A stretch of DNA of 64,000 nt. It comes from Escherichia phage HK6. The position numbers were made by a program, and so were the translations under genes. Each line of letters starts with the position of its first letter. Position 1 is the stretch's first letter. The notes beneath the pieces are model-generated. The model worked only from the letters and a program-made list of their open reading frames with translations. It was not told the origin of the DNA and ran no database searches. The stretch lies in sequence record PP724615.1. The stretch is one strand, 5' to 3'. Shown piece by piece: positions 3,083 through 59,372 of this stretch.

Positions 3083-3532
3083 TTAATTTATTAACTGTAA
3101 GCTTCTTTTAATTTCAGACCTTACCTGCATCAAAAGAACTCCTAAAGTATTATCCCCGATGCCTCGGCAAACACCCCAATATGTATCTCCCCAGGTATTT
3201 CCTTCGATCAAAGTTGCATTTTTTGTTGCTAACAGTTTGTCCCTCAAATCAGGGATTGCAAACTTTAACCGTAAAAGCTCTAGCATTACATCATCTTTTA
3301 CCTTATCCCAGTCAGAGCGCAGAGTTAATTTACGTCCTCTACGTTTGGCAACACCTGCATTTAGGGAGCGCAGTACATGAGCTACATCATCTTTTTGGTC
3401 GGATTTCATAGCCTGAAAAGCATGTTCTACAGTATCAGCATGCCATATTTCATTCAGATATTCAAAAGTAATTGGTGATAAATAAAAGTTTGATAAGAAA
3501 CTATAAGCACCTTTAAATTCAGTAATCTTCAT
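3083..3532 (-). CDS. NADAR (YbiA/DUF1768) family protein, 149 aa
   Basis: N-terminal YSFLSNFY, EHAFQAMK, WGDTYWG and LG..LMQVR motifs typical of NADAR domains. Confidence 0.75.
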   Translation of the reverse strand: MKITEFKGAYSFLSNFYLSPITFEYLNEIWHADTVEHAFQAMKSDQKDDVAHVLRSLNAGVAKRRGRKLTLRSDWDKVKDDVMLELLRLKFAIPDLRDKLLATKNATLIEGNTWGDTYWGVCRGIGDNTLGVLLMQVRSEIKRSLQLIN

Positions 3533-10884: not shown

Positions 10885-10913
10885 ATTATACCAATATATA
10901 CAGTAAAAAGCAA
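10885..10913 (-). promoter_or_regulatory. sigma70 early promoter TTGCTT-17-TATAAT (phoH)
   Basis: -35 10908..10913, -10 10885..10890. Confidence 0.75.
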
Positions 10914-10962
10914 CTACAATTTTAAATAAGCCTATGATATTGCATTTAAATAAAAAATTTGC

Positions 10963-10990
10963 TTGCTTTTAACGTGAGATGTGTGATACT
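10963..10990 (+). promoter_or_regulatory. possible promoter TTGCTT-16-GATACT with extended TGT
   Basis: read directly; weaker -10. Confidence 0.4.
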
Positions 10991-11105
10991 AGATAATCAT
11001 TTTATATCGCGTGCACGAGTGCGTGATTATACAATTTTTAATAGAGATTGGCAAATAAAATTTTTTGACTCAGATCATGTTACAGAACTTTATAGTAAAA
11101 TATTG

Positions 11106-11134
11106 TTGACATCCGCCCTCGAATGAGTTATAAT
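11106..11134 (+). promoter_or_regulatory. consensus sigma70 promoter TTGACA-17-TATAAT (nrdD)
   Basis: -35 11106..11111, -10 11129..11134. Confidence 0.85.
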
Positions 11135-13045: not shown

Positions 13046-13078
13046 AGCCGGGTTGCTAGTCGACCTGGCTTTTATTTT
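13046..13078 (+). terminator. terminator after nrdD
   Basis: AGCCGGGT/ACCTGGCT stem 13046..13070 then TTTTATTTT. Confidence 0.8.
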
Positions 13079-13080
13079 AT

Positions 13081-13109
13081 TTGCTTTCATCCAAAAATTT
13101 ATATATAAT
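13081..13109 (+). promoter_or_regulatory. sigma70 early promoter TTGCTT-17-TATAAT with conserved leader ATAAATTTGAGAGGAG
   Basis: -35 13081..13086, -10 13104..13109. Confidence 0.8.
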
Positions 13110-13137
13110 AGATTTATAAATTTGAGAGGAGAAAGAT

Positions 13138-13518
13138 ATGGAATTAAAGCCCTATATAGTTGAATCTACATGTGGTAGTTTCCATCTGGGTGTGGATGAT
13201 ATTGCTGAGGCTGTCTTTGCTGCTACAGGTGATTACTCGCATATAGAGGGTGTTGCATACCCTACCATTATTGGCGATTGGGTGGAAACAAATCTAGATG
13301 TATCGCCTTATAACCCATATTGCTTGTTTGATGAAGACAGAGATGAAGTAAAATGTAATCTTGAATTTGTGTATAATAGAGTGTTAAAAGTATACCAACG
13401 TAGCCCCAATGGGTACGAAGATATTACTTGGAGTATTAAACAGTATCTTAAAGATATATACTCTAGTTTTTCTGACGAAGACCTAGAAATAGTTGCAGTG
13501 GAGTTTAATAATGACTAA
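13138..13518 (+). CDS. strongly acidic hypothetical protein, 126 aa
   Basis: GAGGAG RBS behind a T5-type early promoter; 25 D/E versus 8 K/R by my count. Confidence 0.6.
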   Translation: MELKPYIVESTCGSFHLGVDDIAEAVFAATGDYSHIEGVAYPTIIGDWVETNLDVSPYNPYCLFDEDRDEVKCNLEFVYNRVLKVYQRSPNGYEDITWSIKQYLKDIYSSFSDEDLEIVAVEFNND

Positions 13519-13717
13519 GAATGTGAAACACCTTAAATATCGCTTAATTTACAACGGACGTATGGAAACAGAAGATCTGGCCCAGTTAGCTATTAATTCT
13601 AAGGAGGTTACAGTGCGTGCGCTGGCAATTGAAAAGTTGCGTGCCTCTTATGAAAATCGTGTTATGGAATTAGAGGAGAAACTTTATGGCATTCTCGAAG
13701 CCGATGCTACCAGATAA
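13511..13717 (+). CDS. hypothetical protein, 68 aa
   Basis: GGAG 7 nt before ATG 13511, overlapping upstream stop. Confidence 0.45.
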   Translation: MTKNVKHLKYRLIYNGRMETEDLAQLAINSKEVTVRALAIEKLRASYENRVMELEEKLYGILEADATR

Positions 13718-13907
13718 GGGTTTAAACGCCGCTTTGGAAAACGCATTAATGCAGCACTGGGAAACTGGCTATAAGGATGGTGTTGAATCCTGCGCTACTA
13801 TGCTAGAAGTTATTGCTAATACCTTAATGGAGAAAGGCAATAAAGAATTAGCTGAGCTATTAGATAGTATTGGGCAAAACTTCAGAGAACAGGTGAAAAA
13901 TGCGTAG
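13686..13907 (+). CDS. hypothetical protein, 73 aa
   Basis: GGAGAA RBS, operon context. Confidence 0.5.
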   Translation: MAFSKPMLPDKGLNAALENALMQHWETGYKDGVESCATMLEVIANTLMEKGNKELAELLDSIGQNFREQVKNA

Positions 13908-14736
13908 ATTAATTATTATTAGTGGTGCAGGTTTGAGTGTTGAAAGTGGTGTACGAGCTTTTCGTACTAATACTGCTAGCGGTAAAGCATTGTGGGATGA
14001 TTATGATCTAGAAGAAGTATGTAATATTCATGCCTTTCGTGGTAATTTTTATCATAAAACCCATATGTTTTACAACAAGCGTCGTGAAGAGCTAAAAACT
14101 GTTGAACCCAATCTTGCGCATTTGCGTATTGGTGAATGGTATAAACAATATCCAGGTCAAGTAGTAAACTTGACTACCAACGTTGATGACCTTATTGAGC
14201 GTGCTGGCGTTTCACATAGTGACATTCTGCACATTCACGGATATTTAAAAGAGGTTGTTGTAGCTGATAGCTACAATAGTAGCAATAAACGGATTATTGA
14301 TGTAGGATACAGTTCTATCGATCCGGATGATTATAAATGGGTTAAACCTAATGTAATCTTCTTTGGAGAGCATGCTCCAGCATATGCAGAAATGTACAAT
14401 GTTTTTGATGGTATTACCAGTCAAGATATGATTGTTGTGGTTGGTTGTTCTAACCAAGTAATTAACTTCTACTGGGAATTATTTCCTGTTCTTAATTTGA
14501 CTGCTGCGAAACTTATGGTTGTTAACTACCATGATAGTGCCCTCGCAGCGGAACCGGGCTATCAAGGTATGACTCGTAGTGAGATGTACCAGCTGGAGGA
14601 ACGCGGTATCCCTTACTGGAGTAAAGGTGCGGTAGATGCTTTCAGTGACCCTGATTTTATTGCTCGTGTAGAAGCTCATTTAGAGGGTAGACCTTATGTG
14701 TTGAGAAGCAAGGGAAACAGATATGTCCATAGTTAA
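13900..14736 (+). CDS. Sir2-family NAD-dependent deacylase / ADP-ribosyltransferase homologue, 278 aa
   Basis: GAGLSVESGVRAFR (NAD pocket), TTNVDDL, catalytic HIHG, PNVIFFGE, VVVGCS motifs. Confidence 0.8.
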   Translation: MRRLIIISGAGLSVESGVRAFRTNTASGKALWDDYDLEEVCNIHAFRGNFYHKTHMFYNKRREELKTVEPNLAHLRIGEWYKQYPGQVVNLTTNVDDLIERAGVSHSDILHIHGYLKEVVVADSYNSSNKRIIDVGYSSIDPDDYKWVKPNVIFFGEHAPAYAEMYNVFDGITSQDMIVVVGCSNQVINFYWELFPVLNLTAAKLMVVNYHDSALAAEPGYQGMTRSEMYQLEERGIPYWSKGAVDAFSDPDFIARVEAHLEGRPYVLRSKGNRYVHS

Positions 14737-14905
14737 ATCTGTATATACACATCCCGATGACATATTTGTATGGGCAGATGGTAGTTGGTGCTATCGATGT
14801 GAGTTATGGGAAATGGACTATAAATCCGATGACTATGGCGTCATATATGTTGATACGGTTGAGTATGATACGTTCTTAGAAAGGAACAAAAATGGAAATA
14901 AGTAA
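14723..14905 (+). CDS. hypothetical protein, 60 aa
   Basis: ORF in operon, overlaps both neighbours by a few codons. Confidence 0.45.
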   Translation: MSIVKSVYTHPDDIFVWADGSWCYRCELWEMDYKSDDYGVIYVDTVEYDTFLERNKNGNK

Positions 14906-15398
14906 TACTCCAATTATTTTTCTAGATATTGATGGGGTGCTCAATTCGAGCATCTCCCACCATCATGCACCTGATAATGAAAAGATTTTCTTTGGAAGTG
15001 ACTGGGTTTTCAAACCGCTTCTCAAGGCTTTTCAGGATTTTATTCGTCCTTCTCCGATAATGATTGTTGGAGTATCCTCATGGTTCTCTGTCAGGAATGA
15101 GATGGAAAACGTTCAGATTATGACCGGATTAGGTCTTATCGATCGTTTTCTTGGTACAACGGATTTTACTGGGGGTGGATTATCTAGGGGTAATTCTGTT
15201 CTTCGCTTCGTTGAAAAGCATAAGCTCAAACATTGGTGTGTGCTTGATGATGCTGGTGCTATGATGTATCAGTATCCAACGGTTATAGTCAACGGTAGGA
15301 CTGGGATAAATCTTCAAGATTTAAAAGCTGTTAGCTATATGCTAGAATTTAGCCCAGATCTTGAAATGTGTAAATCCTTACAACAATTTAAGGTGTAA
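14892..15398 (+). CDS. HAD-superfamily phosphatase-like protein, 168 aa
   Basis: motif I IIFLDIDGVLN and late VLDDAG motif; AAGGAA RBS. Confidence 0.6.
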   Translation: MEISNTPIIFLDIDGVLNSSISHHHAPDNEKIFFGSDWVFKPLLKAFQDFIRPSPIMIVGVSSWFSVRNEMENVQIMTGLGLIDRFLGTTDFTGGGLSRGNSVLRFVEKHKLKHWCVLDDAGAMMYQYPTVIVNGRTGINLQDLKAVSYMLEFSPDLEMCKSLQQFKV

Positions 15399-15400
15399 AT

Positions 15401-15829
15401 ATGTTCAATAATGTATTCTCTAAAGAAGCTAACCCAATTTTGGTTAACTTTTGGCGTACTCTCCCAGCTAGCCTGTATAATGAGGCTATTAACTCCTTGA
15501 AAATATGGTGTGAGAATAATGAAATCTCCTTTGCTTTTAAAGATGATATTGATGAGGCCCCCTGTATTGGTTTAATTGTTCAGGTAGAGGAGGGTCTTGA
15601 GGAGATTGTCGGCTGGAAAGAGTTAGATGAAATAGGCTTAGTTTTTGCGTTAAACTATAAGCTGTTTATGCCTGCTAAGCATCGCCTCGTTGTTAACTAT
15701 AAAACTAGTGAATCTCCTGGTTTTCAAGTTAATGAACGTTACGGTTGGTCTTACTTACCGGAAGAAGTAAATGATGGTATCCAAAAACTTCGCCGTTTTG
15801 GTTATCAAATTCCGGGTTTAACTGCTTAA
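15401..15829 (+). CDS. hypothetical protein, 142 aa, paralogue of next gene
   Basis: AAGGTG RBS; shares PCIG..W.EL...GL..ALN..F.P...G(Y/I).(I/V)PGL pattern with 15839..16231. Confidence 0.6.
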   Translation: MFNNVFSKEANPILVNFWRTLPASLYNEAINSLKIWCENNEISFAFKDDIDEAPCIGLIVQVEEGLEEIVGWKELDEIGLVFALNYKLFMPAKHRLVVNYKTSESPGFQVNERYGWSYLPEEVNDGIQKLRRFGYQIPGLTA

Positions 15830-15838
15830 GGAGGAAGA

Positions 15839-16231
15839 ATGGAACAAGTATATTGGCGTCAGATTGACCCTAGTTTGGTGAAGCGTGCGGAAAAGCTGCT
15901 ACAACGTTGGTTAGGGGTAAGGCAAGCCTCCTTCACTTTTCCGGAGCAGCAAACGGATGATCCCTGCATTGGCGTTTTCCTGTCTGGATATGCCGGGGAA
16001 TGGGAGATGGACTGGAATGAATTGTCAGCTATGGGTTTAATTGTTGCCCTAAACTTCTCTATATTCCATCCACGTGGTTTGGCCATATGTCGCGTGCCTG
16101 ATGACGGTTGTTCGCCCCATCTTTTACAGGTGGAAAATGATATTTGGGAGTACACTCCAGATATTCTCGCAGAAGCTAAAGAACAATTAAATCGTGTTGG
16201 GATTTATGTTCCGGGATTAAATGATGAATAA
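15839..16231 (+). CDS. hypothetical protein, 130 aa, paralogue of previous gene
   Basis: AAGGAGGAAG RBS; see paralogue. Confidence 0.6.
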   Translation: MEQVYWRQIDPSLVKRAEKLLQRWLGVRQASFTFPEQQTDDPCIGVFLSGYAGEWEMDWNELSAMGLIVALNFSIFHPRGLAICRVPDDGCSPHLLQVENDIWEYTPDILAEAKEQLNRVGIYVPGLNDE

Positions 16232-16418
16232 GGAATTTTGGAAAATAAAAGGGAAGATTTCTAAGTGGAATACTACAGGGAAAATTAGTAAGTCTCTAGA
16301 GATAGAGATAGCTAGAATGTTTACTGATCCTAATTTTGATATAGAAAAACTAAGCAAAGTAGATGCTAAAAAAGTAGATAAGTATATAGAAGAGATTAGA
16401 AGTATTTTAAGTGTCTAA
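16221..16418 (+). CDS. hypothetical lysine-rich protein, 65 aa
   Basis: last ORF of operon, followed by terminator 16426..16451. Confidence 0.45.
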   Translation: MMNKEFWKIKGKISKWNTTGKISKSLEIEIARMFTDPNFDIEKLSKVDAKKVDKYIEEIRSILSV

Positions 16419-16425
16419 TCCACGT

Positions 16426-16451
16426 AACCGAGTCATTTTGGCTCGGTTTTA
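16426..16451 (+). terminator. terminator closing the Sir2/HAD operon
   Basis: AACCGAG/CTCGGTT stem then TTTTA. Confidence 0.75.
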
Positions 16452-16494
16452 TCCGTACTCAAGACCAATGATAGCACCATCCGGAAAATTTTAC

Positions 16495-16523
16495 TTGCAG
16501 GATGCCCAAAATCTTGATATAAT
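16495..16523 (+). promoter_or_regulatory. sigma70 promoter TTGCAG-17-TATAAT (extended TG)
   Basis: -35 16495..16500, -10 16518..16523. Confidence 0.7.
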
Positions 16524-16555
16524 ATTTATATTGAATTGAGAGACATTAGTAAAAA

Positions 16556-16585
16556 TTGATTTTGCTAATTTTTCTTGTTTACAAT
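16556..16585 (+). promoter_or_regulatory. sigma70-like promoter TTGATT-18-TACAAT
   Basis: -35 16556..16561, -10 16580..16585, A-tract upstream. Confidence 0.5.
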
Positions 16586-17021
16586 CCGCGATACGGAACA
16601 GTTAGGCTGCCCCATTAAGGGTTGTTTTAACTGTTACGTGTTAGTTTTTAAACAAATAGTTAATAGAATACTTAGCGATCTACATCCCGTAGGAACCCTG
16701 GTAAGGCCTCGAAGCAACCTAGTGTGAGGTGGTTGTGAAGTGAGACGGGAAGAGTGAAAAACTCTGAGAAGTGATGACGTAAGGTATACTGCATCTAGTA
16801 TGAGCTAGTACATGAAGCATTAGGTGAGCAAATCTGGCTTAGCGGCCATCCTCAAGGATTTGTGCGGTATAGTGAAGCGGCAGTGTAGCGTGAAAGGGGA
16901 AGTTGCCACCCCCCTTCAGTATTTGCGATTAATTGTTGAGAAATTGACAGTAACAGTTGTTCTATTCTTTCTGAATAGTCCTAAAGAAAACTTATTTCAT
17001 TTCCAACACAGGAGTATTGTT
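16586..17021 (+). other. long untranslated, locally structured, G-rich region (candidate ncRNA / regulatory leader / origin)
   Basis: stops in all three forward frames up to 16823, no reverse ORF, about 50% G+C in 16681..16920 by my count, multiple hairpins. Confidence 0.4.
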
Positions 17022-19811
17022 GTGTTCTCAATCCTACAAGGTCATGCAGGATTTCATCGCGACTTAGCCACAGGCATTTGGCGAGAAGTTAAAGCAGAAG
17101 ACTATCTTTTTGCTAAAAGATTTTCCTCAAAGCATCCTGAAGGTAAACCAGCTTCAATGCCCTTCAAGTTTGATGTAATTGATGAAGTTGATCCTCAAAC
17201 CCTAGTAGAAATGCTCCCTCTTATGAGACGTTTAACGTCTGACCCTCATATCGTTGCGGTACGAGGTCGATGTCTTGCACCCAAAAATAACGTGCGGCGT
17301 AAGAAGGGCAACTTTAATGTATCTAACCCAAGTCATATAATTGCATTGGACGTGGATGGTATTGTAGATACAGGTGGTTGTAACAAGTTTGATCTTGTTG
17401 GCATGGCTCGACATATTATTAGGATGTTAAATAGTATTAGTGAGGATATGTTTCCTCTTGATGCAGGGTTTATTGCTCATGCATCGTCTTCGGCTGGGCT
17501 AAAACCAGGTATCCGAATGCACTTAATACTAGAATCTAATGTTAAAGTAACTCAGGGTCAAATCAAATTCTTATTTACATCTATCAACGAAAGTAGTAGA
17601 CAAAAGTATGGCTTTGATATTGCCGACTTAGCTTATTACTCTTCCGTACAGCTCCATTATTTTGCAGATCCGTTATTTACCGATGGTATAGTAGATCCGT
17701 TTAAAGCGGAGGGTGCCTCACGTCTGGTATTTGTTAAGGGTTCTAAAGTAAATTTACCTAATAATCTGGTTGACTATGAAACAACTAGAGGTGAGTTTAA
17801 AGAGGAGTTCTACTCTTTACTCGACCAAATTAAGGGTAAAAAAGCTGCCTCTGATAAAGTAGAGGAAACTATCAGCGAACTAGAAGAAGCTGAGGATGGA
17901 GTGTACCTACGTATTATACCTAAACTCTATCATAGAGCTTTGGAGGATGGTGTTGATTTTGCATGGCTAGAAAAAGAAATCCGTCCAGCCTTATCAGAAT
18001 ATATTGCAACTAAAGATAATAGTCGCAATATTCAAGATTACTTTAATAACGGTCGTAAGCAGGCTCTAAAAGCATTTGTTAATAATTCTAAACGTGATAT
18101 ACCTGATGTTTTAAAAGGTATTCCACTTAAAAAGCTAGAAACTAACTCTCTAGAAACTGATAACTTCTTGAAATTAAATACTGTACCACCAGAAGGTTAT
18201 ATGACTTTTGTAAAAGCAAGTCTAGGTACAGGTAAAACTACGGCGGTTGTGCGTTGGTTAGATTCAGGAGTTATTAAAGGTAATTTCTTAGCAATTACCA
18301 ATACTCGAGCACTGGTATCTTCAAATGCTAAGAAATTTAGTGCAGGACAATATGATAAGTCTGTAGATATGCTTAATTTTAAGCGTGGCGCTATTGACCG
18401 TATGTCCACAACTATACATTCTTTGCATAAGTTCAAGAGTTTTATTGGTCAAATTGATGCAATCTTTATCGATGAATGTGATGCTGTAATGAATGACCTA
18501 TTATTCGCCCCGGTTGTTAAACAACGTCGTGAATGTATTCAGGTTCTTCGGGATATTCTTGCAACTGCAAAAATCATTATATTATCTGATGGGGATATTA
18601 GTGCAGAAACAATTGAAGCATACGGTTCTTTGATTGAGTTTGATAAACCAGTAGCATTTTATAATCATCACCGTAAGATGCTGTCAAAAGCTCATGCTTA
18701 TGAGTTCCCTGACGAATCCAGTATTTGGGTTGCACTTCAGACTTCTCTAGAGATGGGTGAGAAATCTATCCTAGTATCTGACTGTGGTCCAGATGAACTG
18801 AATGAGAAGGGCATGGCGTTGCGTCGTAATACGGGTGCGTTAGTTAAGGAAATCCACTCAAACTCTACGTCTGATGTAGATATTCGACGTATTCTGGATT
18901 ACACAACTAATGAGTTAATTGACCAACAAATTGATTGCTTATTATGTAGCCCATCCGTAACGAGCGGTGTTGACTTTAACTATTTTGATAACGTATTCGT
19001 TATTACTAGGACCAGTAACCAAGCGCCAAACATGCGTTTTCAAGCAATCAGGCGCGACCGTGGCGCTCAGAACATTTATTATTTTATTGATAAATCTACG
19101 AGTGGATTCTCCGCAGGTTCTGAGCAATATAACATTGACGAGGGTTGGCTGGAGTTAGCACAGCAATTATACGCACGTCGCAGAGAGCTGGAATCTAGGA
19201 ACTATACTAGTACTTTACGTTACTATTTGCTTGATCAGGGTGCAACTATTGATATTTTCAGTGAAAGCTGGGGAACTATCGAAGGTGCGGGGAAAGAATA
19301 TACAGAAGAGCGAATCAAAGCCATTTTGTATTCAACCCCTGATTATTGTGCTCCACGCCATGCAGATGCGTATGAAGCTAAACTACTTCTTGTACGCTAT
19401 TATCATCTTGAGTCTATTAAAGATGTAACAGTTGAGCATGTTGAACAATATATCAAGGATAAACCGAATGATCGAGCTGCATTCTTCCATAAGATGCACG
19501 AGATGTTCTGGGAAGATATTAAGAAGTGTTCAAATGTCACTATCAAACCATTCATAGAAGCTCTGAAAGGTAAGAAGAAAGATTTCTTCCTTAAAACAGG
19601 TCAGAGTGCTAACCCAAAATATGCAAGAATGTATCTTGGTATGATGGGTATTGGTAAGGATATGAACACGGAGAATATTGTAGACTGGTACAGAACCTAT
19701 TGTAAAATCGAGTGTATGCCAATCCCATATAAGTTTATGACTGATGAGGAGAAACATATGCATGATGAAGCAATGGCAGAGCTAGGTGCTAGAAATGACA
19801 GTGAAGAATAA
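17022..19811 (+). CDS. replication initiator-type helicase (T5 'replication origin binding protein' position), 929 aa from GTG 17022
   Basis: Walker A SLGTGKTT (18225..18239), DExD-like FIDECD, C-terminal helicase motifs; AGGAG 7 nt before GTG 17022. Confidence 0.8.
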   Translation: MFSILQGHAGFHRDLATGIWREVKAEDYLFAKRFSSKHPEGKPASMPFKFDVIDEVDPQTLVEMLPLMRRLTSDPHIVAVRGRCLAPKNNVRRKKGNFNVSNPSHIIALDVDGIVDTGGCNKFDLVGMARHIIRMLNSISEDMFPLDAGFIAHASSSAGLKPGIRMHLILESNVKVTQGQIKFLFTSINESSRQKYGFDIADLAYYSSVQLHYFADPLFTDGIVDPFKAEGASRLVFVKGSKVNLPNNLVDYETTRGEFKEEFYSLLDQIKGKKAASDKVEETISELEEAEDGVYLRIIPKLYHRALEDGVDFAWLEKEIRPALSEYIATKDNSRNIQDYFNNGRKQALKAFVNNSKRDIPDVLKGIPLKKLETNSLETDNFLKLNTVPPEGYMTFVKASLGTGKTTAVVRWLDSGVIKGNFLAITNTRALVSSNAKKFSAGQYDKSVDMLNFKRGAIDRMSTTIHSLHKFKSFIGQIDAIFIDECDAVMNDLLFAPVVKQRRECIQVLRDILATAKIIILSDGDISAETIEAYGSLIEFDKPVAFYNHHRKMLSKAHAYEFPDESSIWVALQTSLEMGEKSILVSDCGPDELNEKGMALRRNTGALVKEIHSNSTSDVDIRRILDYTTNELIDQQIDCLLCSPSVTSGVDFNYFDNVFVITRTSNQAPNMRFQAIRRDRGAQNIYYFIDKSTSGFSAGSEQYNIDEGWLELAQQLYARRRELESRNYTSTLRYYLLDQGATIDIFSESWGTIEGAGKEYTEERIKAILYSTPDYCAPRHADAYEAKLLLVRYYHLESIKDVTVEHVEQYIKDKPNDRAAFFHKMHEMFWEDIKKCSNVTIKPFIEALKGKKKDFFLKTGQSANPKYARMYLGMMGIGKDMNTENIVDWYRTYCKIECMPIPYKFMTDEEKHMHDEAMAELGARNDSEE

Positions 19812-20028: not shown

Positions 20029-20046
20029 AAATTTATTTGCTTTCAG

Positions 20047-22610: not shown

Positions 22611-23582
22611 ATGACTAATGTAAAAGACTTTATTAAACGTTGCCAAGAAGCGTATTACCAGGGAATGTCTTTAATCTCTGACGAAGAATATGATCGTCTG
22701 ATTAAAAGATTTCCGTTAGAAGAAGAGATCGGGCCTAAGGGCGATATTCCACATCTGTATCGTATGTATTCTTTACAGAAAGTTTATTATAATCGTGGAG
22801 ATAAACCTCCATTTAACCCATTAGGTCAGGTAGAAACTGATAAGTTAGATGGTTGTGCGATTTCTCTGTTATATATTAATGGAGAATTTGTTCAAGCACT
22901 AACTCGTGGTAATGGTATTCTAGGGAATGATGTCACAAGCAACGTAAGATTGCTGAACATCCCTAAAAAGATTTCCCAAAAAGTACCTACTCAAATCACT
23001 GGTGAAGTTCTAATTACAAAAGAAGTAGAAAATAAACGTAACTTTGCCTCTGGTGCTATTAACCTCAAAGATAGTGATGATTTCGTACAACGTATCGGAG
23101 AAGGTGGTTTAATCTTCGTTGCATACGGTATCCAGTGTTCTGCTGAATCTGTAGGTATTACAGAAGCATATTTAAAAGATATGCTTTGGCTAGAGAATGA
23201 GGACTTCTTAACAGTTGTTAATGTGCGTTCCTTCTTTAAATGGATTCCGACGGACGGTAAAGTTGTTCGTATTAATGATAACAACAAATTCTTTCGTGAA
23301 GGCTGGACTAATAAATTTCCTCGTGGCGCATTCGCTATTAAAGAAGATGAAGAAGGCGAAATTACAACTCTTACTAAAGTTGAATGGCAGGTAGGGGCTT
23401 CTGGTAAAGTAACTCCAGTTGGTTATTTCGAACCGGTAATTATTGATGATGCTACAATTGTTAAGGCGACTCTTAATAACGTTGATTATATTAACTCTCT
23501 TGATCTAGAGATCGGTTGCCAGATTCGAGTAATTCGTGCTGGTGGTGTGATCCCGTGCATAGTAGAGCGAGTATACGATTAA
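22611..23582 (+). CDS. ligA: NAD-dependent DNA ligase, N-terminal subunit (Ia + adenylation + OB), 323 aa
   Basis: domain Ia YYQGMSLISDEEYDRL, adenylation lysine motif KLDGCA, OB-fold region; ends where the Zn finger of one-piece LigA begins. Confidence 0.9.
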   Translation: MTNVKDFIKRCQEAYYQGMSLISDEEYDRLIKRFPLEEEIGPKGDIPHLYRMYSLQKVYYNRGDKPPFNPLGQVETDKLDGCAISLLYINGEFVQALTRGNGILGNDVTSNVRLLNIPKKISQKVPTQITGEVLITKEVENKRNFASGAINLKDSDDFVQRIGEGGLIFVAYGIQCSAESVGITEAYLKDMLWLENEDFLTVVNVRSFFKWIPTDGKVVRINDNNKFFREGWTNKFPRGAFAIKEDEEGEITTLTKVEWQVGASGKVTPVGYFEPVIIDDATIVKATLNNVDYINSLDLEIGCQIRVIRAGGVIPCIVERVYD

Positions 23583-23632
23583 TACATAACCCTTTGCTAC
23601 CCATCTACCATATCGGAATTATAAAGTGGTTA

Positions 23633-23661
23633 TTGACATTTTCGCCGCTTAGGTATATACT
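23633..23661 (+). promoter_or_regulatory. sigma70 promoter TTGACA-17-TATACT (inside ligase split)
   Basis: -35 23633..23638, -10 23656..23661. Confidence 0.7.
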
Positions 23662-23725
23662 ATTATCATTCAGTTGAGGGATAGAAAGTTATGGCGAGGG
23701 TAAGCAAAGTTAGTTAAAATTGTAG

Positions 23726-23754
23726 TTGCTAAATGCTTAAATACTTGCTATAAT
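23726..23754 (+). promoter_or_regulatory. sigma70 early promoter TTGCTA-17-TATAAT (ligB)
   Basis: -35 23726..23731, -10 23749..23754. Confidence 0.75.
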
Positions 23755-23784
23755 ATTTATATAAATTGATAAGGAAGAAATTTG

Positions 23785-24564
23785 ATGAAAATCGAAATTC
23801 CAACACAATGTCCCTCTTGTGGTTCTAAGCTAGATCTTGTCAACGGACAATTATTCTGTAGGAATAAGTCCAACTGTCCAGCGCAATCAAGTAAGTTAAT
23901 TGAGAACTTCTGTTCAAAAATGAAGTTAAAGGGCTTTGGCCCAAAAACTATTGAGAAGCTGGAGCTGACGAAGATTTCAGAACTATTTTACCTAACCGAA
24001 GAAGATTTGGTTAGAGCCGTGGGTAGCAAGGTTGCCGCTAAGTTAATTAGCGAATTAAATACTAAAGTTCGCGGAGGCATTGACTTTGGTTCAGTTCTCG
24101 GTTCTTTAGGAATCCCTCTAATTGGAGAGGTTGCAGCAAAGAAATTATCCCAAAATTGCACTAGCTTCCACGATGTGAAGGCTGACGGCAAGGCTGGAGA
24201 AAACTATAAAGCCTGGCTAAATTCCCCACAAGGCAAGGATGTTATCGAACTACCGTGGAAATTCTCAACTGGTATTAAGGGCACTAAAGCCGACATCATC
24301 ATTACAGATGAGTTAGTTGCCCAGCCAAATGGAATCGCGGTATGTATTACCGGATCTTTGCAAGATTTTGCAAATCGAACGGATGCAACAAACTATTTAG
24401 AGAGTCTAGGATATACGGTTAAGAAATCCGTTACCAAAGACGTCAAATACCTAATCTGTGAGGATGAATCAAAACGTTCTTCCTCATCTTATAAGAAAGC
24501 CGAAACGAATGGGATAGAAATCCTGTCGATTAAAGAACTATTGGAGAAAAATAATAATGTCTAA
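23785..24564 (+). CDS. ligB: NAD-dependent DNA ligase, C-terminal subunit (Zn finger + HhH + BRCT), 259 aa
   Basis: CPSCGSKLDLVNGQLFCRNKSNCPAQ Zn finger, HhH repeats, BRCT-like end (VCITGSL...); AAGGAAG 7 nt before ATG 23785. Confidence 0.9.
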   Translation: MKIEIPTQCPSCGSKLDLVNGQLFCRNKSNCPAQSSKLIENFCSKMKLKGFGPKTIEKLELTKISELFYLTEEDLVRAVGSKVAAKLISELNTKVRGGIDFGSVLGSLGIPLIGEVAAKKLSQNCTSFHDVKADGKAGENYKAWLNSPQGKDVIELPWKFSTGIKGTKADIIITDELVAQPNGIAVCITGSLQDFANRTDATNYLESLGYTVKKSVTKDVKYLICEDESKRSSSSYKKAETNGIEILSIKELLEKNNNV

Positions 24565-42435: not shown

Positions 42436-44538
42436 TTACCTTATATGGATATACCCGTTTTGCAGGTCTATCTTCATTTTGTAAGATCCCTCTGGATTAG
42501 AGGATAGTGCTGCTGCACGATCATATATAATATTTACACCAATTTGTGATAAGAAAGCGTTATTAGCAACAATTTTACTAGCAGTTACTGTACCATTAAC
42601 TATCATATCACCATGTAAAACCATTGCAGGGCTAGCCCATGCTGAACCATTCCACTGCCTAGTAAACGCTGTTCCTGGTGCTCCGCTCTTATACTCTGTT
42701 AGTACATCATATTTAACAGGACCAGTACCAAAGTTAGATGTAAAAAACGAATTAGCTTGAGAATCATTCCATGCTGTTAAATTCGCAATAGCAAGAGAAT
42801 ACATTCCAGGACCACGTTGTCCATTATTACCTGGTCGTCCATCAGCTCCTGGTTTACCATCTGCTCCTGGTCTACCATCAACACCTTCAGTACCACTCCA
42901 TTGAACTACATCTGACCAACTGGTTCCGGATACTAACTGATTAGTAACAGGGTCTAGAGTACCAGTAGAGCAGTAAATATTTTGAGTATTAGATGTTCTA
43001 TTTGGTGGGGTTTTAGACCAACCAGAAGGTGGGTATGCAGGGCTTGTTGGTTTAGCAGGTAATGAAGTACCTAGAATATAAATAAATACTGTTTGTTTAC
43101 CCTGTATACCCGTCGCTATATCAATGTCGCCATTAGGTGTACCGATCACAACTCCACTAGAAATTCTTAAGGTATCACCATCATAACGAATATATTGTGT
43201 AGCATTACCGATATCTAGTTTTGGCTTCGCAGTAGCATTATCCATACCCATCCAAATACCAGATTTTGTATCCCCCCAAGTTTTACCTTGAGTATAGATT
43301 GCAGGGTTGTCTTGACCAGTCAAATTAGTCATGACAAAGTTCGCAGCATTAATGGTTTTGGTTATTACACTTCCATCAACGTTAACTATCTTTTTAATAG
43401 GGTCAAAAGATATTGGTGCTTTTCCTTCGGCATCTAGAAGTCCAATGTTAATTGCACCGGTGGCAGCGTCTATTAGAAAGGTTTGTTTCCAGGTAGATCC
43501 ATCTTTAATCTTACCCTTGATGTATGCATAGTTTACTTCGATACCGGTCTCATTAACAAAACTATTATCTAACGGTGTACTCTCATTTAGTATAAATGTC
43601 TGTACTGCGGAATCAGTAACATCTTGAGCATCTGGTCCCCAGGCAATAGATGACACTTTAAATTTATGCTCTACTTTCCATGGGAATGATATAATTGTTG
43701 CCGACTGAGCAGCCCCCACGTTGATTTTTTGTGCTTTAGTCCATCCAGTTCTTGCAAATTCTGCTGAATCTATATAAGAGACAACGAATTCACGAACGTT
43801 GGCACCTGCACCCCTATTCCAATCCCATTGCACACGTAAATCATAGCGTTCTTTACCGTCTGCTATACGCGCAGCTTTAAACGCAATATTAACAGGAGCT
43901 GTAGGGGGTACAAAGTTATATCTAACTTCAAAGACAGTAGGATACTCATAGTATCCAGATGAATCAATAGTTACTCCATCTGGTAGGGATATTTGTCCAG
44001 AAATTCTTACCTTATAGAACCCTATTGGCACACCACCAAACATAATAGTTGGCATCAACGCACCAACATAATATTTAACCCACGGATTATTAGCATTAGA
44101 ATTGTTTTTTAATTCTATAGTACAATAATCAGCTTCTCCTGTAGTATCTATATAAACTATTGGCGCTCCAACACCTACGTCTACAGGCTCTGATTCACAT
44201 CTAGTACCTGTAATTCTAGGTGCCGACTTCATTTTAAAAGTTTGTTTGTCAGATAGATTAATACCTATCTGAGCATTAAGTAGTTCAGAGTCTATTATAG
44301 AATCATAAAATGCACCCTGAACTTCATAAGTTGTTGTAGGTTTTAGGTTATTAATAGTTACAGAGAAGGTATCAACTCCAGTAAAATCTCTACGAGTAAC
44401 ATTGCTACCTTCTTTAAGCCAAAAAGATCTGCCTATAACGTCGTAATCAGAGTAGATAGAATGCTGGATATACGCCAACGTATATCCAGTTAAGACGCTA
44501 TTTAGGACCATTTTAGCTGGTGCATTATTTGAAATCAT
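42436..44538 (-). CDS. baseplate/central straight-fibre protein, pb4-like, 700 aa
   Basis: synteny, size, beta-rich repeats, short collagen-like run. Confidence 0.8.
42805..42885 (-). repeat. collagen-like run of nine G-X-Y triplets in pb4-like protein
   Basis: [27 protein letters not shown]. Confidence 0.8.
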
Positions 44539-55514: not shown

Positions 55515-56282
55515 TTAGGTTCCTTGATTAACCTTAATTTTATATCTGGAGTGAATCAGGTCTCTTGCAGCTTTTGCTATAGCCTCACCAATAAGTTTTT
55601 GTGGGTTTCTAGCGCCAGGATAAGGTCGTAGAGATAATCTTCTGTATGTAGATACTGCCGGATTGAACACAGAATATGGACGAGTCATATAATTATATGT
55701 TACGTTCAATTCAGGAGAGCCTTTACTAGCTTCAGAATCACGAAGCATAACATCTTTAATTTTTAAAGAGTTTGCAAAGCGACCCGTTCTAAACTTTAAG
55801 GGTGCTCCCGCTTTTTTCATATCCTTTATTAAGTATTCTTTAGCAACTATCTCTAATATAATCTTCATATTGCTGTTAGACACAAAACGTCCAGAAGCAC
55901 CTGTTACTGCACCAGAGTATCCATCCTCAACATCACTAGGATCACCAAAGTTTACCTGCACTCTACCAGTAGAACGTTTTTTACCTACTGAGGATTTTTT
56001 ACCAGCAGTTGCTTGTATTAGATTCTCCAGAGCACCTAAATCTCCAGAAAGATCTAAACTAGAGGATACAGCTTTTAGTATAGAGGCTGTTCTAACATCA
56101 AGAAGATCTTGGGATACAGGTTTTGAAAACTTAAAAGATACTTGAGCAACAGTACCATCTCTGGTAGGATCTTTTAACCCTGTTTCAACAGAGTATACAA
56201 CAGTATTCTTATTATTTTCAGATCGGCCTGCAGTATCTAGCTGCTCTTTAATAATTTGTTTAGCTAGATCGGAAAGAGACAT
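55515..56282 (-). CDS. head-tail joining/completion protein, T5 p143-like, 255 aa
   Basis: synteny and size. Confidence 0.6.
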   Translation of the reverse strand: MSLSDLAKQIIKEQLDTAGRSENNKNTVVYSVETGLKDPTRDGTVAQVSFKFSKPVSQDLLDVRTASILKAVSSSLDLSGDLGALENLIQATAGKKSSVGKKRSTGRVQVNFGDPSDVEDGYSGAVTGASGRFVSNSNMKIILEIVAKEYLIKDMKKAGAPLKFRTGRFANSLKIKDVMLRDSEASKGSPELNVTYNYMTRPYSVFNPAVSTYRRLSLRPYPGARNPQKLIGEAIAKAARDLIHSRYKIKVNQGT

Positions 56283-58883: not shown

Positions 58884-59372
58884 TTAGCCTCCAACACCAG
58901 GTGCAGTTGGGGTAGCTTTTACTGCCGCAGACTTAGGAGATTCTCCCGCCCCATTAACAGCTACTGCCTGGAAAGTATACTCTTTTGCTTCTAAGGTAGA
59001 AATAGTACCTGTTTTAGAAGACCCAGAATTATAGGTTTTTGGAGTAGTTCCATCAGTATAGTATACTTTATACTGGGTGATTGGTGAGCCGGTATTAGTA
59101 CCATCAGTAATTGTATAAGTTACTGAATTTTCACCTGGAGTTACCTGCAACGTAGGGGCTCCAGGGACAACGTCTACTGGACCAGCCTTACCATAAGCCT
59201 CTACAAATTTCTTCCATACTTTGCGGTTAGTATGCGCAGATGAAAGTCCTAGTTCTCTACGCAGAAAAGCATAGCTAGGAACATATTTATGCGCGGCAAC
59301 CGTAGCAAAGAAGATATGAGATTCTGGCAGTTTTTCACCAAAAATGGTCTTTAGACCACTATAATCAATCAT
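58884..59372 (-). CDS. capsid decoration protein, pb10-like, 162 aa with FN3/Ig-like C-domain
   Basis: position between portal and protease; C-terminal FN3-like PGAPT..YKVYYTDG..FQAVAVNGAGES. Confidence 0.8.
   Translation of the reverse strand: MIDYSGLKTIFGEKLPESHIFFATVAAHKYVPSYAFLRRELGLSSAHTNRKVWKKFVEAYGKAGPVDVVPGAPTLQVTPGENSVTYTITDGTNTGSPITQYKVYYTDGTTPKTYNSGSSKTGTISTLEAKEYTFQAVAVNGAGESPKSAAVKATPTAPGVGG

What the first reader, a model, noticed from the sequence alone, without database searches (positions are those of the whole stretch)
13081..16451. Self-contained accessory operon (promoter to terminator) combining Sir2-like, HAD-like and seven unknown small proteins
One early promoter (13081..13109) and one terminator (16426..16451) bracket nine tightly packed or overlapping genes. 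In order these are an acidic 126-aa protein, two small ORFs, a Sir2 homologue, a 60-aa ORF, a HAD phosphatase-like protein, two paralogues and a 65-aa ORF. None is needed for the textbook replication or nucleotide-synthesis functions that flank it. Sir2 domains are NAD-consuming. Together with the NADAR gene at 3083..3532, this suggests the operon manipulates NAD or ADP-ribose chemistry, either as counter-defence or as host takeover. That interpretation is inference.
Basis: partly seen in the sequence, partly recalled or inferred. Interest (0 to 1): 0.6.

Follow-up and report, generated by a model that had tools for sequence, protein, structure and literature searches.

The report
Phage T5 early sirtuin–phosphatase operon
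This is the already-annotated early operon T5.100–T5.107 of a T5-like phage, built around a zinc-less sirtuin, a HAD phosphatase and two copies of an orphan-fold protein; its function is untested, and the best reading is NAD-dependent processing of phosphorylated RNA or nucleotide ends rather than defence against NAD depletion.

Summary
A T5-class early promoter (13081–13109) and a hairpin terminator (16426–16451) bracket nine packed or overlapping + strand genes; eight show clear purifying selection, while g9 has too few substitutions to judge. The window is a Tequintavirus, and the block is T5 genes T5.100–T5.107 plus two small variable ORFs. The promoter and terminators are already annotated in the T5 reference.

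g4 is a CobB-like class III sirtuin. It keeps every catalytic motif but lacks the four zinc-ligand cysteines. g6 is a cap-less HAD_SAK_2 phosphatase. g7 and g8 are DUF7415 paralogues with a confident predicted fold that matches no solved structure.

The Sir2–HAD pairing in T5-like phages was published in 2022, with a KptA/Tpt1-like RNA-repair hypothesis.

New here:
- Sir2, g5, HAD, DUF7415 and g1 recur across Demerecviridae.
- cREC sits next to the Sir2 in other phage lineages, and T5 carries cREC elsewhere (T5.084).
- T5-like phages have no RNA ligase.
- HAD and DUF7415 are each fused elsewhere to dATP/dGTP pyrophosphohydrolase-family domains. DUF7415 also sits between NrdD and NrdG.

NADAR is an unlinked, variable gene. 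Counter-defence against NAD depletion is not supported. The mechanism remains inference.

The parts
13046..13070 (+). Intrinsic terminator of the upstream nrdD gene; left boundary of the unit
   Evidence: 10-bp G+C-rich hairpin followed by a T run; -15.4 kcal/mol, z = -3.2; annotated at the same place in T5 and HASG4
13081..13109 (+). T5-class early sigma-70 promoter, TTGCTT-17-TATAAT
   Evidence: Sequence; member of a pattern class found 17 times against 3.5 expected, orientation-consistent; a promoter is annotated at the homologous T5 position
13138..13518 (+). g1 (T5.100), 126 aa, very acidic, function unknown
   Evidence: pI 4.1, charge -17, pN/pS 0.17-0.27; phrog_11748; homologues lie next to Sir2 in Erwinia KEY and Pectobacterium My1; structure model unreliable
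13511..13717 (+). g2 (T5.101), 68 aa, function unknown
   Evidence: phrog_5236; pN/pS 0.13-0.20; found only in Tequintavirus and Epseptimavirus among the loci examined
13686..13907 (+). g3, 73 aa, function unknown; variable (no orthologue in T5 itself)
   Evidence: phrog_5827; annotated in HASG4; no orthologue found in the T5 locus
13900..14736 (+). g4 (T5.102), 278-aa CobB-like class III sirtuin lacking the Cys4 zinc module
   Evidence: PF02146 E = 9e-25; closest solved structure is E. coli CobB 1s5p, E = 1.8e-17; GAGxS, FYNxRR, TxN[VI]D, HG and FGE invariant, no zinc cysteines across the phage clade; no PADLOC hit
14723..14905 (+). g5 (T5.104), 60 aa, acidic; recurrent small ORF immediately after the Sir2
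   Evidence: phrog_5116; pN/pS 0.04-0.07; follows Sir2 in Tequintavirus, Epseptimavirus, Sugarlandvirus and phage 7-11
14892..15398 (+). g6 (T5.105), 168-aa cap-less HAD phosphatase of the HAD_SAK_2 family
   Evidence: PF18143 E = 7e-20; DxDGV, SSW, TGGGxxR and DD motifs conserved; mislabelled 'Sir2' in RefSeq records
15401..15829 (+). g7 (T5.106), 142-aa DUF7415 protein, paralogue of g8
   Evidence: PF24187 E = 1.6e-34; 31% identical to g8, E = 3e-19
15839..16231 (+). g8 (T5.107), 130-aa DUF7415 protein with an orphan fold
16221..16418 (+). g9, 65 aa, basic, function unknown; variable (absent from T5 itself)
   Evidence: phrog_29527; present in NBSal005 and HASG4 only among the loci examined; too few substitutions to test selection
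16426..16451 (+). Intrinsic terminator closing the unit
   Evidence: 10-bp hairpin, -13.5 kcal/mol, z = -3.7, then UUUUAU; annotated as a terminator in HASG4 and T5

Best explanation
The block is the known early accessory operon T5.100-T5.107 of T5-like phages. It is read from one strong early promoter to one terminator.

Its conserved core is a zinc-less, CobB-like sirtuin (g4), a small partner ORF (g5), a cap-less HAD_SAK_2 phosphatase (g6) and two DUF7415 paralogues (g7, g8).

The most likely mechanism (inferred, not shown) follows and extends Iyer et al. 2022. The sirtuin uses NAD+ to ADP-ribosylate a phosphate-bearing nucleic-acid or nucleotide end, in the manner of KptA/Tpt1 acting on an RNA 2'-phosphate. 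This releases nicotinamide and ADP-ribose 1'',2''-cyclic phosphate. The unlinked cREC protein (T5.084) would open cyclic phosphates. The HAD would remove a terminal phosphate, either from the RNA end or from the ADP-ribose-phosphate by-product.

The net effect would be to restore usable 3'-OH/2'-OH RNA ends, for example on tRNAs cut by metal-independent host ribonucleases. Sealing or CCA rebuilding would be left to host enzymes, because the phage has no RNA ligase. DUF7415 and the small ORFs would be accessory or targeting subunits.

Shown: anatomy, domain identities, motif conservation, gene associations. Inferred: every biochemical step.
For: Operon anatomy.

Identity with T5.100-T5.107 and prior annotation.

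Sirtuin: all NAD-binding and catalytic residues are invariant, including the catalytic His and the anion-binding Tyr/Arg pair of class III. The Cys4 zinc module, which forms half of the acyl-peptide cleft, is lost in the whole phage clade. This fits retained ADP-ribosyl-transfer chemistry on a non-peptide, anionic substrate.

HAD: membership of HAD_SAK_2 with a complete active site.

Neighbours of the same Sir2 clade (52-61% identity in Vequintavirinae):
- Vequintavirus: RNA ligase-cREC-Sir2.
- Mydovirus: RNA ligase-cREC-AAA_33 kinase-Sir2.
- Jumbo phage PBECO4 (38.5% identity): Sir2-Nudix-cREC.

T5 encodes cREC as T5.084.

In four Aeh1-like genomes, HAD and DUF7415 flank RNA ligase 1, with a CCA-adding enzyme nearby.

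The Sir2-HAD pairing and the KptA-like hypothesis are published (PMC9503650).

Knock-down of T5.084 scored Fit and of T5.102 Semi-Fit in E. coli DH10b. This suggests a role even without exotic defences, although the authors caution about T5 Semi-Fit calls.
Against: - No sirtuin has been shown to act on RNA or on phosphate acceptors.
- No RNA ligase homologue is found in the window plus T5 1-50 kb (best E = 0.72). A 2'-phosphate normally arises only in ligase pathways of the yeast/plant type.
- The conserved class III Tyr/Arg pair fits an ordinary desuccinylase or deacetylase equally well.
- Independent fusions and neighbourhoods tie HAD_SAK_2 and DUF7415 to deoxynucleotide enzymes rather than RNA: dATP/dGTP pyrophosphohydrolase family, thymidylate kinase, NrdD/NrdG, Td.
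- Module composition is variable. HAD is absent in Sugarlandvirus, DUF7415 is absent in Erwinia KEY, and there are no recognisable partners in muut, nt-1 or 7-11.
- Co-transcription in phage early regions is weak evidence of shared function.
- The RNA-ligase adjacency rests on essentially one subfamily plus one T4-like lineage.
Confidence: 0.35

Rival explanations
1. Nucleotide-pool module. The HAD is a (deoxy)nucleotide or ADP-ribose-phosphate phosphatase. DUF7415 is a docking or regulatory domain that ties enzymes to the phage dNTP-synthesis machinery (NrdD and others). The sirtuin is an ordinary NAD-dependent lysine deacylase that retunes host or phage metabolic enzymes during takeover.
For: - The operon sits directly after nrdD and next to phoH-nrdA-nrdB-frd-thy.
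- DUF7415 lies between NrdD and NrdG in two T4-like groups.
- DUF7415 is fused to the dATP/dGTP pyrophosphohydrolase domain PF04447 and to thymidylate kinase.
- HAD_SAK_2 is fused to PF18909, the N-terminal domain of the same enzyme family.
- HAD follows td in Aeh1-like phages.
- The sirtuin is closest to CobB and keeps the class III Tyr/Arg pair.
- Sir2 knock-down is Semi-Fit in a laboratory strain.
Against: - Loss of the zinc module in the entire phage clade is atypical for peptide deacylases.
- The recurrent cREC, Nudix and RNA ligase neighbours of the Sir2 are not explained.
- DUF7415 also occurs in a P2-like moron position and beside DNA polymerase, without nucleotide enzymes nearby.
- Each fusion is a single lineage.
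- T5 already has the Dmp nucleotidase.
Confidence: 0.27
2. No joint function. The unit is a transcriptional container for unrelated accessory genes (morons) that happen to share an early promoter. Each gene acts alone.
For: - Composition varies between lineages. g3 and g9 are missing in T5, HAD is missing in Sugarlandvirus, DUF7415 is missing in KEY, g1 is replaced in Epseptimavirus, and some relatives carry HNH endonuclease insertions.
- The 5' end is mosaic.
- Single-domain DUF7415 proteins occur alone in very different contexts.
Against: - Sir2, HAD, DUF7415 and g1 recur together in distant Demerecviridae subfamilies despite sequence divergence down to 40-60%.
- The Sir2-g5 pair also occurs in the unrelated phage 7-11.
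- HAD and DUF7415 co-occur again in Aeh1-like phages, and each is fused to the same enzyme family elsewhere.
Confidence: 0.2
3. One reading: the operon, together with NADAR, counteracts NAD-depleting or ADP-ribosylating host defences such as Thoeris, Sir2-type systems or DarTG.
For: - The sirtuin uses NAD.
- NADAR is present in this genome.
- Phage ADPr-processing domains are proposed to counter ADPr-derived signals (PMC9503650).
- In Mydovirus the Sir2 neighbourhood lies within 6 kb of NAMPT and PRPP-synthetase genes.
Against: - A sirtuin consumes NAD and cannot replenish it.
- The operon and the window contain no NAD-salvage gene.
- The phage DNA ligase is NAD-dependent.
- No protein matches a defence-system model (PADLOC).
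- NADAR is unlinked, variable and absent from T5.
- Known anti-Thoeris and anti-DSR proteins are sponges or binders, not sirtuins (general knowledge).
Confidence: 0.08

Closest known systems
Bacteriophage T5 early genes T5.100-T5.107 (NC_005859, 55708-58976)
   Same: Same position between nrdD and the origin-binding helicase gene, same order, 85-98% protein identity for the shared genes, same promoter and terminators.
   Different: This phage has two extra small ORFs (g3, g9) that T5 lacks. T5 has a duplicated g5 (T5.103/T5.104). g1 and g3 are mosaic between strains.
Phage 'sirtuin-centred RNA-repair' neighbourhoods of Iyer, Burroughs, Anantharaman and Aravind 2022 (type 3, Escherichia phage SP15)
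   Same: SP15 is a T5-like phage that matches this region. It has the same Sir2 plus 'Swiss-army-knife' HAD pairing.
   Different: That description is computational only. It does not mention DUF7415, g5 or g1, the absence of an RNA ligase, the unlinked cREC (T5.084), or the fusions of HAD and DUF7415 to nucleotide enzymes, all of which were found here.
E. coli CobB / human SIRT5 (class III sirtuins)
   Same: Rossmann NAD-binding motifs, catalytic His, TxN[VI]D, FGE, and the Tyr/Arg pair that binds anionic acyl groups.
   Different: Only about 28-33% identity. All four zinc-ligand cysteines are missing in the whole phage clade. The substrate is unknown.
KptA/Tpt1 RNA 2'-phosphotransferase pathway
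   Same: The proposed chemistry is parallel: NAD+-dependent ADP-ribosyl transfer, then a 1'',2''-cyclic product. Co-occurring cyclic-phosphate (cREC), Nudix and phosphatase enzymes fit this.
   Different: The fold is unrelated (sirtuin rather than ART). There is no ligase to create a 2'-phosphate in T5-like phages. The activity has never been demonstrated.
T4 Pnkp/Rnl1 tRNA repair
   Same: A cap-less DxD HAD phosphatase could heal 3' ends as the Pnkp phosphatase domain does. In Aeh1-like phages the HAD and DUF7415 flank RnlA.
   Different: The operon has no kinase domain and no ligase. The HAD belongs to a different family (HAD_SAK_2).
Defence-type Sir2 NADases (ThsA, DSR1/2, Sir2-HerA, SPARSA)
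   Same: Sir2 superfamily; NAD as substrate.
   Different: No match to any PADLOC model. No sensor or partner domain. Phage-encoded early gene. Sequence closest to deacylase sirtuins.

Membership tests
T5 early operon T5.100-T5.107 | Synteny between nrdD and the origin-binding helicase gene, with orthologous genes in the same order | tested here: met
   95.7% nucleotide identity to NBSal005 over the whole region; gene-by-gene match to NC_005859
T5-class early sigma-70 promoter | TTGCTT-like -35, 17-nt spacer, TATAAT -10, oriented with the downstream genes | tested here: met
   13081-13109; pattern class found 17 times against 3.5 expected; activity not measured
Intrinsic terminator | Stable G+C-containing hairpin followed by a U tract | tested here: met
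   -13.5 kcal/mol, z = -3.7; the U tract is short (UUUUAU) and partly within the stem, so efficiency is unknown
Sirtuin (SIR2, PF02146) | Profile score above the curated cut-off | tested here: met
   88.1 bits against a cut-off of 24
Sirtuin (SIR2, PF02146) | NAD-binding GAGxSxxSG...FR, TxN[VI]D, catalytic His (HG), FGE | tested here: met
   Invariant in 9 phage homologues and CobB
Sirtuin class III (CobB/SIRT5) | Tyr and Arg of FYxxRR that bind anionic acyl groups | tested here: met
   Y58 and R61 are invariant
Canonical deacylase sirtuins | Cys4 zinc-binding module | tested here: not met
   No cysteines at the CobB zinc-ligand positions in any phage clade member
Canonical deacylase sirtuins | NAD-dependent removal of acyl groups from lysine | not testable with these tools
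   Needs an enzyme assay
Defence-type Sir2 NADase systems | Match to ThsA, DSR, Sir2-HerA or SPARSA models, or an adjacent sensor or partner | tested here: not met
   No PADLOC hit at E <= 0.1 for any of the nine proteins
HAD superfamily phosphatase, HAD_SAK_2 (PF18143) | Profile score above cut-off; motif I DxDx[TV], motif II S/T, acidic motif IV | tested here: met
   72.2 bits against a cut-off of 27.5; D12/D14, S62-S63 and D119-D120 are conserved
HAD superfamily phosphatase, HAD_SAK_2 (PF18143) | Motif III Lys/Arg | tested here: inconclusive
   Invariant R99 in TGGGxxR is a candidate, but assigning it needs a structure
RNA-repair system (end healing plus sealing) | An RNA ligase encoded by the same element | tested here: not met
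   No homologue of three phage RNA ligases in the window plus T5 1-50 kb; none annotated in T5 in the stretches examined. About 5 kb of unique T5 sequence was not covered
RNA-repair system (end healing plus sealing) | A cyclic-phosphate-processing enzyme (2H or cREC) | tested here: met
   T5.084 is cREC_REC, E = 3e-15, but it lies about 13 kb away and outside this window
KptA/Tpt1-like 2'-phosphotransferase function | ADP-ribosylation of an RNA 2'-phosphate with release of ADP-ribose cyclic phosphate | not testable with these tools
   Only contextual inference
DUF7415 (PF24187) | Profile score above cut-off | tested here: met
   118 and 110 bits against a cut-off of 27, two stretches each

The most novel reading that the evidence does not exclude
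The zinc-less phage sirtuin is the first sirtuin that ADP-ribosylates a phosphate on a nucleic-acid or nucleotide end (Tpt1-like chemistry on a Rossmann scaffold). It would work with cREC and the HAD in a ligase-independent end-healing or nucleotide-detoxifying pathway. DUF7415 would be a new-fold adaptor coupling this pathway to the phage dNTP and RNA-processing machinery.
Probability: 0.22. Interest if true: 0.72.

Novelty: already known. Interest (0 to 1): 0.33.

Why it matters
T5 is a model phage and is currently used to probe tRNA-targeting defences. Yet this conserved early sirtuin operon has no tested function, and about 1000 phage records in the collection carry the same sirtuin clade.

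If the sirtuin acts on phosphorylated RNA or nucleotide ends, that would extend sirtuin chemistry beyond proteins and define a ligase-independent repair route. If it is a protein deacylase, it would be a clear case of a phage rewriting host acylation. Either way, the genes are small, separable and directly testable.

DUF7415 is a confident orphan fold with repeated links to nucleotide enzymes. As a genome-scan finding, however, the operon is already annotated and its key pairing is already published.

Tried and rejected
1. Generic promoter/terminator scan. It missed both boundary signals because of its thresholds. I replaced it with a class-specific pattern search and hairpin folding.
2. PADLOC. 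No hit for any protein, so defence or anti-defence labels were dropped.
3. Sequence search of HAD and DUF7415 against PDB chains. Nothing found.
4. Structure of g1. The model was poor (pLDDT 63.5; the other four models 37-47), so no fold search was run on it.
6. Rfam on 12.9-17.2 kb. Only a chance snoRNA match at E = 0.99. No tRNAs in the window.
7. Literature. No paper mentions DUF7415, HAD_SAK_2 or T5.102/105/106 by name. No experimental work on phage sirtuins or cREC was found. The 2016 RNA-repair paper that defined the HAD_SAK domain is not held. The T5 pre-early-gene preprint does not cover this region.
8. IMG/VR scans. The DUF7415 alignment was too variable to seed a search. The HAD scan returned mostly T5-like isolates.
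9. A 53-kb 'phage' record with a Sir2 turned out to be the E. coli chromosomal cobB locus next to a prophage.
10. The idea that the small ORF directly upstream of Sir2 is a universal partner was not supported. g3 homologues are confined to Tequintavirus and Epseptimavirus.
11. Internal duplication of DUF7415. Pfam reports two matched stretches per protein, but the predicted secondary structures of the two halves differ. This was left open.

Full report
IDENTITY OF THE REGION

The window is a T5-like phage (Tequintavirus). Region 13000-16900 matches 528 phage records. The best is 95.7% identical over its full length (Phage NBSal005), and the hosts are Salmonella, Escherichia and Klebsiella.

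The finding corresponds gene for gene to T5.100-T5.107 of the T5 reference (NC_005859, 55786-58927). There, a promoter (55708-55782), the upstream nrdD terminator and a downstream terminator (58952-58976) are already annotated. The HASG4 record annotates both terminators too. The feature is therefore real but not new.

THE OBSERVATION

The sequence at 13081-13109 is TTGCTT-17 nt-TATAAT. It is followed by a consensus ribosome-binding site and the ATG of g1. The generic scan did not list it because TTGCTT matches only 3 of 6 positions of TTGACA.

The class pattern TTGCT-N18-TATAAT occurs 17 times in the window against 3.5 expected, and no shuffle reaches 17. All exact copies lie in the early region, with minus-strand copies left of 11 kb and plus-strand copies right of 13 kb. 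One of them is the site at 20037, upstream of the D2-helicase homologue, where T5 annotates promoter P-N25.

The nrdD terminator hairpin (13046-13070) folds at -15.4 kcal/mol with z = -3.2. The closing hairpin (16426-16448) folds at -13.5 kcal/mol with z = -3.7. Both fold better than all 200 shuffles. The next promoter of the class is at 16495-16523.

Nine plus-strand ORFs fill the interval, with overlaps of 8-32 nt or gaps of 2-9 nt. pN/pS against HASG4 and T5 orthologues is 0.04-0.36, so even the 60-73-aa ORFs behave as genes. g9 has too few changes to say. g1 has pI 4.1 and net charge -17.

THE PROTEINS

g4 is a sirtuin-type SIR2 (PF02146, E = 9e-25). Its closest solved relative is E. coli CobB (1s5p, E = 1.8e-17), followed by archaeal Sir2 and human SIRT5, that is, class III. 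It is not a recent capture. The host cobB locus, met by accident in a prophage-flank record, is only about 28% identical.

I aligned nine phage homologues with CobB. The following are invariant:
- GAGxSxxSG...FR;
- FYNxRR, the class III Tyr/Arg pair;
- PNxAH;
- TxN[VI]D;
- ERAG;
- the catalytic HG;
- FGE.

None of the phage proteins has cysteines at the four zinc-ligand positions of CobB. No protein of the operon matches any defence-system model (PADLOC).

g6 is a 168-aa HAD_SAK_2 phosphatase (PF18143, E = 7e-20). It has DxDGV, SSW, an invariant TGGGxxR signature and a DD motif, and it has no room for a cap domain. RefSeq records mislabel it 'Sir2'.

g7 and g8 are paralogues (31% identity, E = 3e-19) carrying DUF7415.

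g1, g2, g3, g5 and g9 fall only in PHROG families of unknown function.

DUF7415

An exhaustive HMMER search found only 161 clusters in 1.84 billion representative proteins. The conserved core is the C-terminal half of g8, with the motif W-N..S..GL...N...HP.GLA..RDP.TG.S..LVADDG.WEY. It exists on its own as 70-100-aa phage proteins.

Its contexts are as follows:
- between NrdD and NrdG in two T4-like groups;
- translationally abutting RNA ligase 1 in Aeh1-like phages;
- a moron position in a P2-like phage;
- next to DNA polymerase B in another contig.

Rare fusions join it to a dATP/dGTP pyrophosphohydrolase domain (PF04447; P0137 and P0139 are one lineage) and to a thymidylate-kinase domain (P0129).

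HOW CONSERVED IS THE MODULE

Local profile searches over fetched loci show the Sir2 in every Demerecviridae locus examined. It always lies just upstream of the origin-binding helicase gene.

| Lineage | Gene order (Sir2 block) |
|---|---|
| Tequintavirus, Epseptimavirus | Sir2-g5-HAD-DUF7415 x2 |
| Pectobacterium My1 | g1...Sir2...HAD...DUF7415 |
| Erwinia KEY | HAD-g1-Sir2 |
| Sugarlandvirus | Sir2-g5-DUF7415 x2, no HAD |

Other patterns:
- g5 also follows the Sir2 in the unrelated phage 7-11.
- g3 and g9 are missing from T5 itself.
- g1 and g3 are only 63-66% identical to their HASG4 versions while g5-g9 are 93-98% identical, so the 5' end is mosaic.

The core is therefore Sir2 with recurring g5, HAD, DUF7415 and g1. 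The remaining ORFs are lineage-variable.

PUBLISHED INTERPRETATION AND NEW CONTEXT

Iyer, Burroughs, Anantharaman and Aravind (Viruses 2022, PMC9503650) state that most viral sirtuins form a distinct clade. They list three neighbourhood types. [quoted passage not shown] They propose that the sirtuin acts like KptA/Tpt1 to remove RNA 2'-phosphates, with the partner enzymes resolving cyclic phosphates or degrading ADP-ribose cyclic phosphate.

I confirmed the other neighbourhoods:
- Vequintavirus: tRNA cluster...RNA ligase-cREC-Sir2.
- Mydovirus: phosphoesterase...RNA ligase-cREC-AAA_33 kinase-74 aa-Sir2-DNA ligase...PRA-PH (MazG-like), with NAMPT and PRPP synthetase upstream.
- Jumbo phage PBECO4: Sir2-Nudix-cREC.

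New here: T5 itself encodes a cREC_REC protein, T5.084 (E = 3e-15). It lies about 13 kb from the operon, just left of this window. So T5-like phages hold sirtuin, cREC and HAD.

Equally new and cutting the other way, no RNA ligase homologue exists in the window plus T5 1-50 kb (best E = 0.72), and none is annotated in the T5 stretches examined.

In a CRISPRi-ART screen of T5 in E. coli DH10b, T5.084 was Fit and T5.102 (Sir2) Semi-Fit. The authors warn that T5 Semi-Fit calls are imprecise (bioRxiv 10.1101/2023.09.18.558157, supplementary text S3). I found no biochemical or genetic study of the operon.

MECHANISM

The reading I consider most likely (0.35) is the following. The sirtuin keeps ADP-ribosyl-transfer chemistry but has lost the peptide-clamping zinc module. 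It acts on an anionic, phosphate-bearing nucleic-acid or nucleotide end.

Sirtuin and Tpt1 chemistries are formally parallel (established mechanisms; my inference for this protein). In both, an oxygen nucleophile attacks C1'' of NAD+ and nicotinamide leaves. The 2''-OH then attacks to give a 1'',2''-cyclic species. The catalytic His and the Tyr/Arg anion site would be used in either case.

cREC would open cyclic phosphates. The HAD would remove the resulting monophosphate from the RNA end or from ADP-ribose phosphate. In PBECO4 a Nudix enzyme would take the latter role. Without a ligase, the pathway would heal ends for host RtcB or the CCA-adding enzyme rather than seal them.

A plausible trigger even in K-12 is activation of metal-independent toxin RNases after T5 shuts off host transcription. 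That is also inference.

THE MAIN RIVAL

The nucleotide-pool rival (0.27) rests on evidence that I did not expect and that the published account does not cover. In a metagenomic phage contig (L057), HAD_SAK_2 is fused to PF18909, the N-terminal domain of the dATP/dGTP diphosphohydrolase family. DUF7415 is fused to the catalytic domain of the same family and to a thymidylate kinase.

DUF7415 sits between NrdD and NrdG. The HAD follows td in Aeh1-like phages. The T5 operon itself follows nrdD, within the nucleotide-synthesis cluster.

Under this reading the HAD is a nucleotidase, DUF7415 a docking or regulatory module of the dNTP machinery, and the sirtuin a deacylase. This does not explain the cREC, Nudix and RNA ligase links or the loss of the zinc module.

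The two readings could converge if the true substrates are phosphorylated nucleotides rather than RNA ends.

OTHER RIVALS

A third possibility (0.20) is that co-transcription here does not imply joint function, given the variable composition.

- The Sir2 is not NADase-like.
- It consumes the cofactor that the phage's own split NAD-dependent DNA ligase needs (22611-24564).
- No NAD salvage gene is present.
- NADAR (3083-3532, minus strand; PF08719, E = 7e-22) is a ~490-bp insertion absent from T5. It is present in only about 95 T5-like records, against about 530 with the operon.

VERDICT

The feature is already known as an annotated T5 operon, and its Sir2-HAD pairing is already discussed in the literature. 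The function is untested.

The additions here sharpen what to test:
- the zinc-less clade signature;
- the conserved Sir2-g5 pair;
- DUF7415 as an orphan fold tied to both the HAD and nucleotide enzymes;
- T5.084 as the missing cREC;
- the absence of an RNA ligase.

Interest is modest (0.33). It would rise to about 0.7 if the sirtuin proves to act on phosphorylated nucleic-acid or nucleotide ends.

Noticed in passing
window 16452-17021: About 570 nt of non-coding sequence lies between the operon terminator and the origin-binding helicase gene. Its likely GTG start near 17022 is judged by length match to the HASG4 and T5 annotations. A T5-class promoter sits at 16495-16523, implying a ~500-nt leader. 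The folding signal is mild (z = -2.26), there is no Rfam family, and there are no iterons.
   Followed up: partly
window 3083-3532 (minus strand): The NADAR gene (PF08719) is a ~490-bp insertion relative to T5, which has the 92-aa T5.090 there. Only about 95 T5-like records carry it, so it is a variable accessory gene not linked to the Sir2 operon.
   Followed up: yes
L022 (NC_005859) 42745-43062, minus strand; just left of window position 1: T5.084 is a cREC_REC (cyclic-phosphate-processing receiver) protein. It is homologous to the gene wedged between RNA ligase and Sir2 in Vequintavirinae. It was a 'Fit' gene of unknown function in the CRISPRi-ART T5 screen.
   Followed up: partly
window 13138-13907 compared with L002: The 5' part of the operon is mosaic. 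g1 and g3 share only 63-66% amino-acid identity with HASG4, while g5-g9 share 93-98%. Synonymous differences are near saturation, which suggests allele replacement by recombination.
   Followed up: no
L057 9260-10507 (IMG/VR contig IMGVR_UViG_3300037528_000350): A 415-aa protein fuses the dATP/dGTP diphosphohydrolase N-terminal domain (PF18909) to HAD_SAK_2. A WDGH-domain gene lies nearby. DUF7415 is fused to the sister domain PF04447 in P0137/P0139 and to thymidylate kinase in P0129.
   Followed up: partly
L007 4404-4598 (Klebsiella phage phiKp_27): There is an unannotated ORF homologous to g5 directly after the Sir2 gene.
   Followed up: no
L001, L003, L013 and protein clusters P0013, P0025, P0029, P0035: Annotation errors are propagating in databases. 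The HAD (T5.105) is labelled 'Sir2 (NAD-dependent deacetylase)'. DUF7415 proteins are labelled 'exonuclease' or 'tail tube protein'.
   Followed up: no
window 22611-23582 and 23782-24564: The NAD-dependent DNA ligase is split into two ORFs: adenylation plus OB domains, then HhH plus BRCT domains. This matches T5 ligA/ligB and makes the phage dependent on NAD.
   Followed up: no
window 1-24000: Thirteen near-perfect TTGCT-N18-TATAAT promoters are arranged divergently around 11 kb, where the phoH and nrdD promoters lie back to back at 10885-11134.
   Followed up: partly
L014 1-1129 (Klebsiella phage VIK251): In Mydovirus, nicotinamide phosphoribosyltransferase and PRPP synthetase genes lie about 5-6 kb from the RNA ligase-cREC-kinase-Sir2-DNA ligase cluster. 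This hints at local NAD recycling in that lineage.
   Followed up: no
public records OR848833.1 and MG065647.1/MG065639.1: A 3.5-kb 'Listeria phage' record carries a NADAR gene 100% identical to this window. 'Campylobacter phage' records carry an rV5-like Sir2. Both are probably mislabelled or contaminated entries.
   Followed up: no
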